Sequence record: PZ179882.1
From: a phage
DNA: 64,000 nt
Direction: 5' to 3' (one strand)
Shown here: positions 1 to 56,580 of the stretch, piece by piece
Position numbering within the stretch: the stretch's first letter is position 1
Layout of the letters: each line of letters begins with the position of its first letter
Notes under the pieces: model-generated
Told to the model about the DNA's origin: nothing
Databases searched by the model: none
Seen by the model: the letters and a program-made list of their open reading frames with translations, nothing else
Translations under genes and position numbers: made by a program

Positions 1-410
1 CCACGCTCAATAGCTTCAAGCTGATTCACCATATCAATTTTTAGCTGTTCAACTGACTGAATTGGCGTATGAATTACTCGTTCCGGGTCAACTCCCATGG
101 ATCGCAAATAAGCTGGAGTAATACCAAATTCGCTATCATAGAATAGACAAACCGCGTCAGGATATTTGTTCAAATATGCCGCAACCATAGTCAAAGACAT
201 ATTTGATTTAAAGTGTTTAGAAGGCCCTGCGAAAATAGTTAAACCAGACTGCATACCGCCATCAATCGCACCAGAAATAGCAATATTAAGCATTGGAATT
301 TTTGTACGAATTACATCCTTTTCATTAAAGAATTTAGATGTAGTCAGTTCAGCAGTCATTTTAGAAGTGGAAGCTTTAATCAAACGGGATTTTAAATCTG
401 CAATAGACAT
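1..410 (-). CDS. uvsX: UvsX RecA-like recombinase, N-terminal part (gene runs off the window start)
   Basis: Minus-strand translation from ATG at 410 gives MSIADLKSRLIKASTSKMTAELT..., matching my recollection of the T4 UvsX N-terminus; no stop before position 1. Not in the ORF track because it is truncated. Confidence 0.8.
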   Translation of the reverse strand, partial: MSIADLKSRLIKASTSKMTAELTTSKFFNEKDVIRTKIPMLNIAISGAIDGGMQSGLTIFAGPSKHFKSNMSLTMVAAYLNKYPDAVCLFYDSEFGITPAYLRSMGVDPERVIHTPIQSVEQLKIDMVNQLEAIER

Positions 411-487
411 TCATTTTTTCCATAGGCATCATTATATTTTCCTCACTGGTTAAAGATAGAGTAATTATAACACAATAAATTTAGGCA

Positions 488-1336
488 TTAATCAACTGCT
501 ATTGGATGAATAGCATTAAACTTATGAAATGCTTCTGATTTTTCTTTACGCGAAACACACATGCGAAGAACCTTTAATGGCTCGTCTTCTTCACCCAACG
601 ATTTTCGTTTTTCAATATTCGATGTTTTCCAACGAGCTTGCTCTGGAAACTCTCTATTGATTTGCTCAAGCGCTCTATTATGTTTAGAATTACTACGAAT
701 TGAACTACACCCGCCAGGAGCTTGTGCTTTTCCAGATACAACTAGATATTTGAACAAGGCCAAATGCGGATAACCTTGATTAATTAAATTGAGAAATGCA
801 TACATATCTTCGCATAAATCAATTTTTCCATACCCAATTTGTTCTGTCGTAAGTTTTCCGAGGTCATACCATGTATTCGTGAATCCATATGAATTTTCAC
901 GATAATTACCCCAAGATGAAGTAATTTTAAAAATTGGTAGACGAGCATGACCGTGATAATACCCGCAATCCATGGCATCTTCAACATATTGAATCAATTC
1001 ATAGAACTGTTCACGAGTTAATTGATTAATTTTATCTACGCGCCGTTTATCGTCTCTCTTTCGTATTGAACTCATACGGATAGTAGTATCATCGTCAATC
1101 ATCCAGATTCGTTGACCTGCATACATATCAGTAATTGCTTTACGAGTACCGGCAATTCCGTTTACATCATCAGGAATAGTTATAATTTTAGCTCTAGACC
1201 CATAGGCATCATAATAAGCTTTTTCTTCATGTTCACGCACTACAATATGGGGTTCATAATCAGTCGGAAACATATCAAGGGCAGAAACTGCCCCGACACG
1301 CTGATAACTTGGAATTACGAATTGAATCATTTCCAC
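488..1336 (-). CDS. DNA glycosyltransferase at the position T4 uses for beta-gt (possibly beta-alpha-gt type as in T2/T6)
   Basis: 282 aa ORF between uvsX and gene 42; contains a DDD motif (IWMIDDDTTI); size does not match the 351-aa T4 beta-gt. Function is inferred from position and motif only. Confidence 0.45.
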   Translation of the reverse strand: MEMIQFVIPSYQRVGAVSALDMFPTDYEPHIVVREHEEKAYYDAYGSRAKIITIPDDVNGIAGTRKAITDMYAGQRIWMIDDDTTIRMSSIRKRDDKRRVDKINQLTREQFYELIQYVEDAMDCGYYHGHARLPIFKITSSWGNYRENSYGFTNTWYDLGKLTTEQIGYGKIDLCEDMYAFLNLINQGYPHLALFKYLVVSGKAQAPGGCSSIRSNSKHNRALEQINREFPEQARWKTSNIEKRKSLGEEDEPLKVLRMCVSRKEKSEAFHKFNAIHPIAVD

Positions 1337-2067
1337 TCACCTTTATAGTCTTTTTTCACAATATGAGTTTCGCCAGTATTCCACCAATGATCAACCAAGT
1401 AAAAATGACGAGAATATACATGAAGACTTCCGACATTCCATATAATAGAACCTGCTTTATACTGACGAGTTGAATCGCCTGCATTCAAATCAGATACTAA
1501 TTTATCTAATACGTATTTTTGCCATGCATAATCATTACGGAATCCGAAGACCACGTCATTTGAGCGCATGCTTACTACTGCATTGACTTTCTTATCACGA
1601 ATCAGGTACTGTACTGTATTAGTACACATGAAATCTGACATACCATCTTTATTGTAATCAAATTGCATGGATGGACGAGTATAAATCATGATACCACGTC
1701 GAGAATCAGGATTTTGACCAAGTTCAGCTAAACACATATCATACTGGGCATAGTTATCTTCTGACCAGATGGCCCAACCATAATTCGAGTTAATTTCGCC
1801 TTTAGAAGATGCTACCTGCTGCCAAATCTTTGGTGTTTCACCTGGAATATCTTTAACAAACAAACTCTTAGATTTATACCATTCAAGTTCACGCTGAATG
1901 TATTCATCATTAAGAGCGCCAAAAATAAACGGTTCATCTGCTACAAATGATGCGCCAATAATTTCAATAGTTTTAACACCAGTTTTATCAATTACGAAAT
2001 CTTTTTCCTTTAATGCAGTTCCCAAATAAAAACGGATTTCTTCAACTGTCATAGAGTCACTAATCAT
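1327..2067 (-). CDS. 42: dCMP hydroxymethylase
   Basis: 246 aa starting MISDSMTVEEIRFYLG, recalled T4 gp42 sequence and length. Confidence 0.93.
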   Translation of the reverse strand: MISDSMTVEEIRFYLGTALKEKDFVIDKTGVKTIEIIGASFVADEPFIFGALNDEYIQRELEWYKSKSLFVKDIPGETPKIWQQVASSKGEINSNYGWAIWSEDNYAQYDMCLAELGQNPDSRRGIMIYTRPSMQFDYNKDGMSDFMCTNTVQYLIRDKKVNAVVSMRSNDVVFGFRNDYAWQKYVLDKLVSDLNAGDSTRQYKAGSIIWNVGSLHVYSRHFYLVDHWWNTGETHIVKKDYKGEWK

Positions 2068-2220
2068 TTAAACCTCAATTGATACATTCATATTTAACTT
2101 GTAACAGTAATAAACCCCAACCTAAAATAATAGTTGGAATCATAAGAGGAACCGTTACACTATAGTATATACTTATTATAATCATCAAGATTAAAAGCAA
2201 TGCTGTTATAATTTTGCTTT

Positions 2221-2472
2221 TCATTCCTTCTCTCTGATGATAATTACCTGATTTGGCTGCGCAGACTTTTTAGTTTCACCTGCAATTGACCAAATAAATG
2301 TAATAAACCAACCAATAATTGACCAGTTAAACAGCAAAGATGTGAAAAAGATTCCTACTGTCGATTTTGACCCACGCATCAAAGCAATAAACCATGGAAG
2401 CATGTATATAATAATAGCCAACACACCTGAAACTAAAACCATAAAAATTGAACCTGCTACTAAAGTTTCCAT
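2221..2472 (-). CDS. imm: superinfection immunity membrane protein Imm
   Basis: 83 aa, two hydrophobic segments, located between 42 and 43 as in T4. Confidence 0.8.
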   Translation of the reverse strand: METLVAGSIFMVLVSGVLAIIIYMLPWFIALMRGSKSTVGIFFTSLLFNWSIIGWFITFIWSIAGETKKSAQPNQVIIIREKE

Positions 2473-2870: not shown

Positions 2871-3119
2871 TCAAATGCAAGTAGTAATTACTCCAGTAGT
2901 GCTTATGCAGGTATTACCCATTTGCACACCTAAAGATCCATTTGTATTCACATGAAGATTATCATCAATTTTAACTGATATTTTACCATTAGTGTGAATA
3001 ATAGTATTAGATTCAATCACAGGTTGAGTATCATTTTCAACACTAACAAATGGAACTGCTGCTAATGCAACTAAACAAACTGCTAAGCAACCCATAACAA
3101 TTTTCATTTTATTCTCCAA
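2871..3119 (-). CDS. small secreted or membrane protein
   Basis: 82 aa with hydrophobic N-terminal signal-like segment; directly downstream of an early promoter. Confidence 0.45.
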   Translation of the reverse strand: MENKMKIVMGCLAVCLVALAAVPFVSVENDTQPVIESNTIIHTNGKISVKIDDNLHVNTNGSLGVQMGNTCISTTGVITTCI

Positions 3120-12699: not shown

Positions 12700-12716
12700 A
12701 AAGGGCCGAAGCCCTT
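12700..12716 (-). terminator. CUUCGG hairpin at the a-gt stop codon
   Basis: Plus strand aaagggccgaagcccttt. Confidence 0.4.
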
Positions 12717-13918
12717 TATTTTGTAATAATGTCAAACTGTTCTTTAAAGCAGAAGCTTGAATCTTGATGCTGATACAAAAATTCATAAGCTTTTTCGCGT
12801 TCGCGATCATAAAGAGCTCGGTCAGATGACAGTTCTTTAATACGTTCAAATGTTGATTCCATGTCATTTTCATCAAACCAAACGATACCGCTATCGTGTG
12901 AAATTAATGGAGTATTATCAACACGGAATTTTAAATTTTCGCCAGTAGATTTCCAAAATACTGGAATTGTTCCACATGCACCAAGCTCGAGATGAGTGTA
13001 TTCTAAAGAACGCTGTAGATATTTTTTGTCCAACTTACTCAGCTGATAACCAAATCCGGATTTACTCATGCGTTCAAGCATTTCGCTATTTACATAACGG
13101 TCGAGAATTTGCGTTGGCAAATTAGGAGCAATTTTAATTTGGTCTACTTGATGAAGACGATAATACTCGTATGGAATTCCTTTTTCTTTAATAGGAATGA
13201 ATGCTGGAGAACGTTCCAGACCTTCCATAATAGTACTTAGTCCTGCAGGTTTAAGATGTTTTTCATGAAAATCAAACATCTGATAAAAGCCTTTCCATGT
13301 AGTAGTACGACCAATCCAACGGTTGATATTCATGTTAATTTCAGAAACATCTTTCCAGTAGGTTGATCGAACCTTCGCAATATCCATAGGAGGCTGAAAG
13401 TTATATACGGTCGGTGCTTCTTCAATATCATCAAACAGAGAAACAGTTTCCGGATACCATTCTTTCATCAAAACTTTATTAAAGTCACCATTATCAGAAT
13501 GGCTAAAAATAACATCAGCTCGACGAACAGTTTCTTCTAATCCCAAATTTCGACGCAAAGAAAGAGAAGAATGGTCATGCTGATAAACTACAACACGAAC
13601 CGAAGGTTTAATGTTATCAATAATTTTTTTATAGTTATTAATGGTGTCTTCTTCTACTGAAGTAGCAGGAACTGAATTGATAATTAAAATATCGCAATCA
13701 TTTACCAGTTTAAGTGTTTTATCGTATTCTTTTGCCAATAAAACCGGAATTGAAAATGACTTATAATCATGTGCGCAATTACGAGTAAATGATTTATCTT
13801 TAGCATAAACCAAAGTTACTTCATGACCATTTTTAATAAACCAATCACGTTGCTCAAGAGAAAATTTAGTTACACCGCAACCTTCAAGACCTCGAGCCAT
13901 AAAAATACATACTTTCAT
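12716..13918 (-). CDS. a-gt: DNA alpha-glucosyltransferase
   Basis: 400 aa starting MKVCIFMARGLEGCGVTKFSLEQRDWFIKNGHEVT (Rossmann-like GT-B start); size and position match T4 a-gt. Confidence 0.85.
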   Translation of the reverse strand: MKVCIFMARGLEGCGVTKFSLEQRDWFIKNGHEVTLVYAKDKSFTRNCAHDYKSFSIPVLLAKEYDKTLKLVNDCDILIINSVPATSVEEDTINNYKKIIDNIKPSVRVVVYQHDHSSLSLRRNLGLEETVRRADVIFSHSDNGDFNKVLMKEWYPETVSLFDDIEEAPTVYNFQPPMDIAKVRSTYWKDVSEINMNINRWIGRTTTWKGFYQMFDFHEKHLKPAGLSTIMEGLERSPAFIPIKEKGIPYEYYRLHQVDQIKIAPNLPTQILDRYVNSEMLERMSKSGFGYQLSKLDKKYLQRSLEYTHLELGACGTIPVFWKSTGENLKFRVDNTPLISHDSGIVWFDENDMESTFERIKELSSDRALYDREREKAYEFLYQHQDSSFCFKEQFDIITK

Positions 13919-28262: not shown

Positions 28263-28982
28263 TTAGGATTCTTCTAAATGTCTTTTCTGAAAAGTTGATA
28301 CCATACTACGATACGGTTCATTTGGATACCCGTGTTTTATAGCTTCCTTTGTAAATTTTCTCCATCCATATTTAGTTTCTTTCCAAAGCTCGAATAATTC
28401 ATCTTCATATTGCCATATAGTTAAATGAGAACGCTTTGCAGCTTTAATTCCATTAATATGCTTTTCTTTTACTACAGGATTACTTAGTTTCTTTTTAATA
28501 ATATTACTAACTTTTCTAACAAAAACTGGGTCCTTATATCGTTGCGAAGTTTTTATTGAAGTGTTTAATTTAGCTTCCGGTGTGGATGTGACCTCTTTCA
28601 TCTTTTTCTTCATATGCTGTATATGATTAGGATTTTTCCATAAATTTATAGAATGCTTTTTGCATTTTATCCTAGTTTCATCTGCAACCTTTCCTCCTTC
28701 ACCTCCGTATGACAGGTTAACACAGTTTTTTCCATATTTCAATTTACCTGCCATGATATATAATATTTCAGCTTGTACCATTTTATCATAATTATCAAAA
28801 ACTTCTAAAACCGTTTTTGTTAATATGTGGTCATTTGACACTTTTACACGTTCTATATAATTTCCACTACCAACATACGAATCATTGATGTTATTAGTTA
28901 TATGTCGACCATAATAGTATTTCTTAATACCTGTCTTTAAATTTAATATTTCAGTTTTATAGATAGTAAAATATTTTTTCAT
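28263..28982 (-). CDS. GIY-YIG family endonuclease (Seg-like, free-standing)
   Basis: 239 aa; N-terminal IYKT...YYYGRH...YVGSGNY GIY-YIG-like module; lysine-rich C-terminal repeats (WKNPNH, YKDPVF, LSNPVV). Confidence 0.6.
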   Translation of the reverse strand: MKKYFTIYKTEILNLKTGIKKYYYGRHITNNINDSYVGSGNYIERVKVSNDHILTKTVLEVFDNYDKMVQAEILYIMAGKLKYGKNCVNLSYGGEGGKVADETRIKCKKHSINLWKNPNHIQHMKKKMKEVTSTPEAKLNTSIKTSQRYKDPVFVRKVSNIIKKKLSNPVVKEKHINGIKAAKRSHLTIWQYEDELFELWKETKYGWRKFTKEAIKHGYPNEPYRSMVSTFQKRHLEES

Positions 28983-55713: not shown

Positions 55714-56580
55714 ATGAAAAAATCTAACACTGTTCAATTTAGATACATATATAAAACAACCGTTACTAATCCGAAAGGATTAGTACGTGTTTATATTGGT
55801 AAACATGAATCTAGATATTTTGATTTAGAAAATGACAAGTATATAGGTTCCGGTGATTATATTAAAAAGATACGCAATAAACCTGGTTATAAAATAGATT
55901 TTGAAATAATTGAATTTGTTTCTACTTATGAAATTCTTAATTTAAGAGAAAGGTATTGGATTTCGAAATATAAATCATCTGACATTCTATGTACCAATAT
56001 AAAATCCGGCGGTGATGGTTTTTCATCCGAAGATTTGAAGAGAATGTGGTCTAATCCTGAATATAGGAAAGCTCAATTGAAGGCATTAGCTAAATCAACG
56101 TCAACTAAAGAATTTTCAGAGAAAATATCTAAAATAAACAAAGAAAGATGCGCATCACCAGAATATCGAAAGAAAATGAGTAATGCGATGAAAACTGCTT
56201 TTGAAAATGACCCGACATTAAAAATTCGTATTTCTAATACTGTTAAATCTTTATGGAAATCCGATGAATACAGAAATAAATTAATCAATCATCCAGGAAA
56301 AATAGAAGGAACGAAACAATCATGGAATGATCCTTTGATAAGAAAATCGAGATTAGATGCTAGAAATAAAAAACTAAGATCAGTTGAACCTTGGATTAGT
56401 ATAGAAAAAGTCAAAAAACTTTGGGAGGATTTGGGAAAACCGCATCCGCAGAAATACAAATGGTTTAGAGAAAAAGCAATTGAACATGACCTTCCGGATG
56501 TAAGTTATAACGCAATTTTAAAAGCTTTGAAAAAATGTGATTATAAATTTACATCATTAGAGAATTCAACAATTGGCTAA
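55714..56580 (+). CDS. GIY-YIG family endonuclease (Seg-like) inserted in the baseplate cluster
   Basis: 288 aa; N-terminal YIYKTT...VYIGKH...YIGSGDY; C-terminal repeated W.NPEYRK and SDEYRNK motifs. Confidence 0.65.
   Translation: MKKSNTVQFRYIYKTTVTNPKGLVRVYIGKHESRYFDLENDKYIGSGDYIKKIRNKPGYKIDFEIIEFVSTYEILNLRERYWISKYKSSDILCTNIKSGGDGFSSEDLKRMWSNPEYRKAQLKALAKSTSTKEFSEKISKINKERCASPEYRKKMSNAMKTAFENDPTLKIRISNTVKSLWKSDEYRNKLINHPGKIEGTKQSWNDPLIRKSRLDARNKKLRSVEPWISIEKVKKLWEDLGKPHPQKYKWFREKAIEHDLPDVSYNAILKALKKCDYKFTSLENSTIG

What the first reader, a model, noticed from the sequence alone, without database searches (positions are those of the whole stretch)
488..1336. Glycosyltransferase at the beta-gt locus is not the T4 enzyme
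The ORF between uvsX and 42 is 282 aa with a DDD motif, not the 351-aa T4 beta-glucosyltransferase, while a-gt (400 aa) is present. This pattern fits T2/T6-type DNA decoration (alpha-glucosyl plus a second glucose added by beta-alpha-gt) and would change sensitivity to glucosylation-dependent restriction.
Basis: partly seen in the sequence, partly recalled or inferred. Interest (0 to 1): 0.45.

Follow-up and report, generated by a model that had tools for sequence, protein, structure and literature searches.

The report
T2/T6-type second DNA glucosyltransferase (βα-gt)
The gene between uvsX and gene 42 is the well-known T2/T6-type enzyme that adds a second glucose to already glucosylated phage DNA; this is the usual arrangement in T4-like coliphages, so the finding is correct but ordinary.

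Summary
A minus-strand ORF at 488-1336 lies between uvsX and gene 42, carries a DDD motif and has no similarity to T4 β-gt. A 400-aa α-gt lies at 12716-13918. One correction: the start is almost certainly the ATG at 1330, which overlaps the gene 42 stop as ATGA, giving 280 aa rather than 282.

The interpretation also holds. The protein is about 98% identical to T2 β-glucosyl-HMC-α-glucosyltransferase (βα-gt). It matches PHROG 842 (5e-89) and Pfam PF20691 TAGT, and it models as a GT-A fold. It keeps all four residues invariant across 88 family members (R11, D80, D175, G207). About 475 phage records carry this gene at ≥90% nucleotide identity, against about 29 with T4-type β-gt, so T4 is the exception.

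Published work already covers the locus. This includes LC-MS of phages with 98-99% identical enzymes (α-gentiobiosyl-5hmC present, no β-glucosyl-5hmC), T6 Δba-gt genetics, and a GT-A assignment for the T6 TAGT.

Verdict: already known, low interest.

Side observation: the T2 references examined and both T6 sequences carry changes at conserved sites of this enzyme. The window allele is consensus at those sites.

The parts
488..1330 (-). βα-gt (ba-gt / ggt / TAGT) coding sequence, 280 aa plus stop. It is a β-glucosyl-HMC-α-glucosyltransferase.
   Evidence: About 98% aa identity to T2 βα-gt. PHROG 842 at E=5e-89. Pfam PF20691 TAGT at 40.7 bits against a cut-off of 27.5. 475 phage records at ≥90% nt identity, where annotated mostly as β-glucosyl-HMC-α-glucosyltransferase or glucosyl transferase.
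1327..1336 (-). Start region. A GTG at 1336 opens the mechanical ORF. The ATG at 1330-1328 overlaps the gene 42 stop TGA (1329-1327) as ATGA, with GGTGAG just upstream.
   Evidence: Sequence read directly. Orthologues are annotated from this ATG in T2, NC_054907 T6, EL, EH2 and Some.
1088..1096 (-). DDD (D79-D80-D81), the DxD metal and nucleotide-sugar binding motif of GT-A enzymes.
   Evidence: D80 is invariant and D79/D81 are ≥90% conserved in 88 family members of 17-64% identity. Coordinates.
1298..1300 (-). Arg11 codon (CGT), in the N-terminal IPSYxR motif after strand β1.
   Evidence: It is one of only four invariant columns in the 88-sequence family alignment. The four T2 and T2-like records translated or aligned here have His at this position.
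806..808 (-). Asp175 codon (the ED motif in CEDMY), candidate catalytic base of an inverting GT-A enzyme.
   Evidence: Invariant in the family alignment. The catalytic-base role is inferred by analogy with GT2 enzymes, not tested.
1327..2067 (-). Gene 42, dCMP hydroxymethylase. It makes the 5-hydroxymethyl-dCMP that gives rise to the 5hmC in DNA.
   Evidence: 95.5% identical to T4 gp42. PF00303 at E=9.6e-16.
12716..13918 (-). a-gt, DNA α-glucosyltransferase (400 aa). It makes α-glucosyl-5hmC, the acceptor for βα-gt.
   Evidence: PF11440 at E=2.4e-236. 91% identical to T4, 99% to T2 and EH2, 100% to phage Some.
1..410 (-). N-terminal part of uvsX (cut by the window edge). It is the left neighbour, and there is no segA homing-endonuclease gene between it and the transferase, unlike in T4.
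   Evidence: 83% identical to T4 UvsX residues 1-134. T4 carries segA here. T2, T6, EL, EH2 and Some have the same segA-free arrangement.
411..487 (-). 77-nt intergenic spacer between the βα-gt stop and the uvsX start.
   Evidence: The 49 nt after the βα-gt stop that were included in the alignment are identical in T2 and T6. The motif TCTATCTTTAACCAGTG recurs, with two mismatches, just downstream of T4 β-gt, marking the left edge of the swapped cassette.

Best explanation
The ORF encodes the T2/T6-type β-glucosyl-HMC-α-glucosyltransferase (βα-gt, also called ggt or the phage TAGT).

Proposed pathway:
- Gene 42 makes hydroxymethyl-dCMP, which is incorporated into DNA as 5hmC.
- α-gt (12716-13918) puts an α-linked glucose on roughly three quarters of the 5hmC residues.
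- βα-gt, an inverting GT-A enzyme with a DxD motif, uses UDP-glucose to add a second glucose in β-1,6 linkage to that first glucose.
- The product is α-gentiobiosyl-5hmC.

There is no β-gt in the window, so the 5hmC residues that α-gt cannot reach should stay bare. The phage DNA is therefore expected to carry a mix of 5hmC, α-glucosyl-5hmC and gentiobiosyl-5hmC, with no β-glucosyl-5hmC.

The gene is probably translated by coupling to gene 42, through the ATGA stop/start overlap.

What is shown: sequence orthology, synteny, family motifs and the predicted fold. What rests on published experiments with 98-99% identical enzymes: the chemistry and the defence phenotypes. What is inferred: the actual glucosylation ratio of this phage, and the roles of individual residues.
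For: Orthology and family:
- About 98% full-length aa identity to T2 βα-gt and 98-99% to the EL, EH2 and Some enzymes.
- PHROG 842 'beta-glucosyl-HMC-alpha-glucosyltransferase' at E=5e-89. Pfam TAGT PF20691 above its gathering score.
- Same position between gene 42 and uvsX as in T2, T6, EL, EH2 and Some.

Partner genes:
- α-gt is present and is of the T2/Some allele type.
- No T4 β-gt anywhere in the window.

Fold and motifs:
- All invariant family residues (R11, D80, D175, G207) and all near-invariant ones are present.

Literature:
- LC-MS of EL, EH2 and Some shows α-gentiobiosyl-5hmC and no β-glucosyl-5hmC, and places TAGT syntenic with T4 β-GT (PMC13390438).
- T6 Δba-gt carries only α-glucosyl-5hmC (PMC11078745; bioRxiv 10.64898/2026.02.25.707755).
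- The T6 TAGT is modelled as GT-A, sister to GT2 (PMC13216743).
- T2 ba-gt is 280 aa, and 12 RB phages carry a-gt plus ba-gt (PMC6024577).
Against: Nothing here contradicts it, but there are limits:
- No experiment exists on this particular phage.
- Only 64 kb of a genome of about 168 kb is visible, so a β-gt elsewhere cannot be formally excluded. One of 753 surveyed phages carries all three transferases (PMC13216743).
- The model is of moderate confidence, with pLDDT below 50 in residues 127-141 and 197-210.
- The extent of gentiobiosylation cannot be predicted from sequence. Near-identical enzymes go with about 5% (T2), about 40% (EL group) and about 67-72% (Some group, T6).
Confidence: 0.95

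Rival explanations
1. It is a TAGT-family glycosyltransferase with a different specificity from T2/T6 βα-gt. For example, it might glycosylate bare 5hmC directly, use another sugar donor, or extend the chain beyond a disaccharide.
For: TAGT homologues occur with α-GT, with β-GT or alone, so specificity varies within the family (PMC13216743). The window allele has a small variant patch (I89, K95, R97, I101) that it shares with phage EL but not with T2, T6 or Some.
Against: It is 98-99% identical to enzymes of phages whose DNA was shown by LC-MS to carry exactly α-glucosyl- and α-gentiobiosyl-5hmC, including EL, which has the same patch. The patch lies outside the conserved family positions.
Confidence: 0.03
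2. The gene is present but inactive or strongly hypomorphic, so the DNA is essentially α-monoglucosylated, as in T2.
For: Reference stocks show that such alleles exist. T2 has R11H at an invariant residue and only about 5% gentiobiosyl. Two T6 records carry an amber codon or a deletion within DDD.
Against: The window ORF is intact. It carries the consensus residue at every invariant and near-invariant family position, and at Q10, R11, DDD and P251 in particular.
Confidence: 0.02
3. It is a highly diverged T4-type β-glucosyltransferase that puts β-glucose directly on 5hmC.
For: Only that it occupies the same locus as T4 b-gt.
Against: There is no sequence similarity (BLASTP E=4.1). The fold class is different: GT-A here against GT-B for T4 β-GT (PMC13216743). 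There is no PF09198 match.
Confidence: 0

Closest known systems
Phage T2 β-glucosyl-HMC-α-glucosyltransferase (ba-gt; UniProt Q06717, 280 aa, as cited in PMC6024577)
   Same: Same length (280 aa), about 98% identity, same position between gene 42 and uvsX, same ATGA overlap with gene 42, and the same T2-type α-gt partner (99%).
   Different: Seven substitutions. The window has R11 and P251, where T2 has H11 and S251. R11 is invariant and P251 is ≥90% conserved among homologues. The window enzyme may therefore be more active than the T2 one, but this is inference.
Phage T6 βα-gt / TAGT (ggt; YP_010067197.1, AXN58083.1)
   Same: About 97% identity and the same locus. This is the enzyme deleted in the T6 Δba-gt experiments that define the function.
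   Different: The window allele is intact. MH550421 has TAG at codon 10. AP018814/NC_054907 lacks one Asp of the DDD motif. T6 also pairs it with the T4-type α-gt allele, which is 91% identical to the window's.
TAGT of Durham-collection Tequatrovirus phages EL, EH2 and Some (PMC13390438)
   Same: 98-99% identical enzymes with identical synteny. Phage Some has a 100% identical α-gt. Their DNA chemistry was measured by LC-MS.
   Different: A few substitutions only. The window shares the I89/K95/R97/I101 patch with EL, but its α-gt allele matches Some and EH2. It therefore cannot be assigned to the 1:2:2 group or to the group with about two-thirds gentiobiosyl.
Phage T4 β-glucosyltransferase (b-gt, NP_049658, GT-B fold)
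   Same: It occupies the same genomic slot downstream of gene 42, and it also glucosylates phage 5hmC DNA from UDP-glucose with inversion, giving a β linkage.
   Different: The sequence is unrelated (E=4.1). It is 351 aa with a GT-B fold, against 280 aa with a GT-A fold here. Its acceptor is bare 5hmC rather than α-glucosyl-5hmC. In T4 it is followed by segA, which is absent here.

Membership tests
T2/T6 β-glucosyl-HMC-α-glucosyltransferase (βα-gt, PHROG 842) | Full-length sequence orthology to the T2/T6 enzyme. | tested here: met
   About 98% aa identity over 280 aa to T2. PHROG 842 at E=5e-89, covering profile positions 3-269 of 270.
T2/T6 β-glucosyl-HMC-α-glucosyltransferase (βα-gt, PHROG 842) | Position between gene 42 (dCMP hydroxymethylase) and uvsX. 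| tested here: met
   for the window. The order is the same in T2, T6, EL, EH2 and Some.
T2/T6 β-glucosyl-HMC-α-glucosyltransferase (βα-gt, PHROG 842) | Co-occurrence with α-gt, which supplies the α-glucosyl-5hmC acceptor, and absence of T4-type β-gt. | tested here: met
   α-gt at 12716-13918 matches PF11440 at E=2.4e-236. There is no β-gt hit at E≤1 in the 64-kb window. The rest of the genome is not visible.
T2/T6 β-glucosyl-HMC-α-glucosyltransferase (βα-gt, PHROG 842) | Transfers glucose from UDP-glucose in β-1,6 linkage onto α-glucosyl-5hmC in DNA. | not testable with these tools
   Supported only indirectly, by LC-MS and deletion genetics on 97-99% identical enzymes (PMC13390438, PMC11078745).
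Pfam PF20691 TAGT (TET-associated glycosyltransferase), GT-A superfamily | HMM score above the curated gathering threshold. | tested here: met
   40.7 bits against a cut-off of 27.5, E=3.3e-10, profile positions 2-205 of 205.
Pfam PF20691 TAGT (TET-associated glycosyltransferase), GT-A superfamily | GT-A (nucleotide-diphospho-sugar transferase) fold. | tested here: met
Pfam PF20691 TAGT (TET-associated glycosyltransferase), GT-A superfamily | DxD motif and the other conserved family residues. | tested here: met
   DDD at residues 79-81. R11, D80, D175 and G207 are invariant, and I6, P7, R63, D79, D81, G186, G206 and R212 are ≥90% conserved, in 88 homologues. All are present in the window protein.
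T4 β-glucosyltransferase (b-gt; PF09198; GT-B) | Sequence similarity to T4 β-gt. | tested here: not met
   BLASTP E=4.1. No PF09198 hit.
T4 β-glucosyltransferase (b-gt; PF09198; GT-B) | GT-B two-Rossmann-domain fold. | tested here: not met

The most novel reading that the evidence does not exclude
The classic, unexplained difference between T2 (about 5% gentiobiosyl-5hmC) and T6-like phages (about 70%) may be due to one derived substitution in T2 βα-gt. R11H changes one of only four residues invariant across the whole TAGT family. P251S may contribute.

The window phage has the consensus R11 and P251 and an α-gt identical to that of phage Some. On this reading it would be a high-gentiobiosyl phage, and 'T2-type' DNA would be a peculiarity of the T2 lineage rather than a natural class.
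Probability: 0.35. Interest if true: 0.3.

Novelty: already known. Interest (0 to 1): 0.08.

Why it matters
It tells an annotator or phage-therapy user what DNA chemistry to expect from this phage: 5hmC, α-glucosyl-5hmC and gentiobiosyl-5hmC, with no β-glucosyl-5hmC.

That chemistry bears on how the phage fares against defences that read the modification:
- Brig1 excises α-glucosyl-5hmC but does not degrade T6 DNA, which is mostly gentiobiosyl-5hmC.
- Brig3 excises bare 5hmC, so phages left with unglucosylated residues are exposed to it.
- BapA removes glucose from α- and β-glucosyl-5hmC but not from gentiobiosyl-5hmC.
- GmrSD and BrxU attack these glucosylated forms.

All of this is already established for T2, T6 and many field isolates, so nothing new follows from its presence in this window.

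Tried and rejected
- **Solved structures:** a sequence search of the PDB with the protein found nothing at E≤1. No TAGT structure is solved, so fold evidence had to come from a model.
- **Word-indexed homologue search:** it returned only 11 hits. The resulting 10-row alignment gave a model of only moderate confidence. The exhaustive representative search found 344 homologues and was used for conservation, but not for a second model.
- **Promoter and terminator scan of 300-2400:** 12 promoter-like sites against 10.6 expected, and 1 terminator-like hairpin against 0.8 expected. That is no signal above chance. The hairpin at 1294-1278 lies inside the coding region and was not pursued.
- **Diverged T4 β-gt:** considered and rejected.
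- **Predicting the gentiobiosylation level from α-gt and βα-gt allele types:** rejected as undecidable. T2 (5%) shares its α-gt allele with EH2 and Some (about 67%). T6 (72%) shares its α-gt allele with EL (about 40%).
- **Technical problems:** two scripted comparisons failed or ran incomplete because fetched loci were not yet visible to the script machine. Two literature and paper look-up attempts failed on terms that were too short. All were redone by other routes.

Full report
**1. What is there**

The mechanical ORF list gives a minus-strand ORF at 488..1336, 282 aa from a GTG. The sequence around the start reads ...AAAGGTGAGTGGAAATGATTCAA.... The ATG at 1330-1328 overlaps the TGA stop of the upstream gene (1329-1327) as ATGA, and a GGTGAG lies a few bases upstream. 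The orthologues in T2, EL, EH2 and Some are annotated from this ATG as 843 nt or 280 aa. The T6 record NC_054907 also starts there, at 840 nt. The DDD motif is at residues 79-81, window 1096-1088.

- To the left (lower coordinates) is the N-terminus of uvsX, at 410..1, 83% identical to T4 UvsX.
- Immediately upstream is gene 42, dCMP hydroxymethylase, at 1327..2067. It is 95.5% identical to T4 gp42 and matches PF00303.
- A 400-aa α-glucosyltransferase lies at 12716..13918 (-). It matches PF11440 at E=2.4e-236 and is 91% identical to T4 α-gt.

The window as a whole is a Tequatrovirus. Its first 8 kb is 98% identical to many T4-like coliphages.

**2. It is not T4 β-gt**

BLASTP of the ORF against the 351-aa T4 β-gt (NC_000866) gives only noise, E=4.1. 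tblastn of T4 β-gt finds nothing at E≤1 anywhere in the 64-kb window, while T4 α-gt, gp42 and UvsX are all found. T4 also has the homing-endonuclease gene segA between β-gt and uvsX, and that gene is absent here. The short motif TCTATCTTTAACCAGTG just after the transferase stop recurs, with two mismatches, just after T4 β-gt. The exchanged segment is therefore essentially the transferase gene alone, from the gene 42 stop to the spacer.

**3. What it is**

- megablast finds 475 phage records with ≥90% nucleotide identity over the whole ORF. Where annotated, most call it 'beta-glucosyl-HMC-alpha-glucosyltransferase' or 'glucosyl transferase'.
- The protein is about 98% identical to T2 βα-gt and 98-99% identical to the enzymes of phages EL, EH2 and Some.
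- It matches PHROG 842 (that same function) at E=5e-89.
- It matches Pfam PF20691, TET-associated glycosyltransferase (TAGT), above its gathering score.
- An exhaustive HMMER search finds 344 representative homologues. In an alignment of 88 of them (17-64% identity), only R11, D80, D175 and G207 are invariant. I6, P7, R63, D79, D81, G186, G206 and R212 are ≥90% conserved. The window protein has every one of these.

**4. How it works**

What is established for the family, from the literature:
- T2 and T6 lack β-gt and encode this enzyme, which adds a second glucose, β-1,6-linked, onto α-glucosyl-5hmC to give gentiobiosyl-5hmC (PMC6024577; PMC13216743; bioRxiv 10.64898/2026.02.25.707755).
- Deleting the gene in T6 gives DNA with only α-glucosyl-5hmC. 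It also makes the phage more sensitive to the Brig1 glycosylase (PMC11078745) and to the BapA glucosidase.
- LC-MS of the Durham phages EL, EH2 and Some shows 5hmdC, α-glucosyl- and α-gentiobiosyl-5hmdC, and no β-glucosyl form. The authors state that the TAGT gene sits where T4 has β-GT (PMC13390438). Their enzymes are 98-99% identical to the window's.
- PMC13216743 models the T6 TAGT as GT-A, sister to GT2. This agrees.

What I infer for this window:
- Gene 42 supplies hm-dCMP, α-gt makes α-glucosyl-5hmC, and the 280-aa enzyme then uses UDP-glucose with inversion.
- The DDD motif would bind the metal and the diphosphate, and D175 is the likely catalytic base, by analogy with GT2 enzymes. Neither role was tested.
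- Translation is probably coupled to gene 42 through the ATGA overlap.
- The 5hmC residues that α-gt cannot reach should stay unglucosylated, because no β-gt is visible.

**5. How common it is**

T4-type β-gt at ≥90% identity occurs in about 29 records of the phage collection. The βα-gt at ≥90% protein identity occurs in about 473. PMC13216743 reports that only 6 of 753 transferase-encoding phages combine α-GT with β-GT. PMC6024577 lists 12 RB phages with a-gt plus ba-gt, and gives T2 ba-gt as 280 aa. The arrangement in the window is the norm and T4 is the exception.

**6. What cannot be said**

The proportion of gentiobiosyl-5hmC cannot be read from the sequence:

| Phage or group | Gentiobiosyl-5hmC | α-gt allele |
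|---|---|---|
| T2 | about 5% | window type (99%) |
| EH2, Some group | about two thirds | window type (99-100%) |
| T6 | about 72% | T4 type (91%) |
| EL group | about 40% (1:2:2 ratio) | T4 type (92%) |

The fractions are and the allele identities. Allele type does not track the phenotype. The window's βα-gt shares a small patch (I89, K95, R97, I101) with EL. Only 64 kb of the genome is visible, so a further transferase elsewhere cannot be excluded.

**7. Side observation on the reference phages**

- The four T2 and T2-like βα-gt sequences that I translated or aligned (PV648363, AP018813) carry R11H and P251S. R11 is one of the four family-invariant residues, and P251 is ≥90% conserved among closer homologues.
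- The nearest natural haplotype, RB32, differs from T2 in an 86-nt stretch only by CGT→CAT at codon 11. The T2-identical stretch occurs in just eight of 462 records, seven labelled T2 plus SV76.
- The two T6 GenBank sequences each carry a different lesion. MH550421 has TAG at codon 10 and is annotated from Met20. AP018814/NC_054907 has a 3-nt deletion that turns DDD into DD.

The window allele is consensus at all of these sites. Whether R11H explains T2's low gentiobiosylation is untested. I did not find it discussed in the papers I read.

**8. Verdict**

The feature is an ordinary, already described member of a known enzyme family in its usual genomic place.

Noticed in passing
L002:16007-16849 and L009:3283-4125 (T2 ba-gt). 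Window equivalents are the R11 codon at 1300-1298 and the P251 codon at 580-578.: T2 βα-gt carries R11H, at one of only four residues invariant in 88 TAGT homologues, and P251S. The nearest natural haplotype (RB32) differs in the compared 86 nt only by this CGT→CAT change. The T2-identical stretch occurs only in T2 records and SV76. This could explain T2's about 5% gentiobiosyl-5hmC against about 70% in T6-like phages.
   Followed up: partly
L004:1138-1980 (T6 MH550421) and L008:821-1660 (T6 NC_054907 / AP018814).: The two T6 reference sequences each have a different apparent lesion in βα-gt. One has an amber codon at position 10 (CAG→TAG) and is annotated from Met20 as 261 aa. The other has an in-frame 3-nt deletion that turns the near-invariant DDD motif into DD (279 aa). 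These may be stock-specific mutations, tolerated variants or sequencing errors; this is unresolved.
   Followed up: partly
Phage records behind H120-H125 (for example Serratia phage PS2, Salmonella phage Melville, Enterobacter phage myPSH1140).: In several Enterobacter and Salmonella records the annotated features under the T4 β-gt match include an adjoining TAGT-type or second transferase gene. Serratia phage PS2 carries both a β-gt homologue and a TAGT homologue (P0010). This implies a second sugar on β-glucosyl-5hmC. It is already remarked on in PMC6024577 and PMC13216743.
   Followed up: no
Window 28287-28922 (-) and 55714-56580 (+).: T4 SegA (a GIY-YIG homing endonuclease) has no counterpart next to uvsX here. 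It gives weak tblastn hits (25-26% identity, E=3e-10 and 1e-7) to two other ORFs in the window, which are probably other seg-type homing endonuclease genes.
   Followed up: no
Window 2075-2224 (-) and 2871-3119 (-).: Two small ORFs have no Pfam match. One is a 49-aa, very hydrophobic ORF between gene 42 and imm. The other is an 82-aa ORF with a signal-peptide-like N-terminus between imm.1 (DUF5481) and gene 43. T2, EL and EH2 annotate small ORFs at these places, while T4 has an unannotated gap after gene 42.
   Followed up: no
Window 12716-13918 (-), with alignment A3.: α-gt falls into two allele classes about 91% identical to each other. One class is window/T2/EH2/Some and the other is T4/T6/EL. 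The classes do not track the measured gentiobiosylation level.
   Followed up: partly
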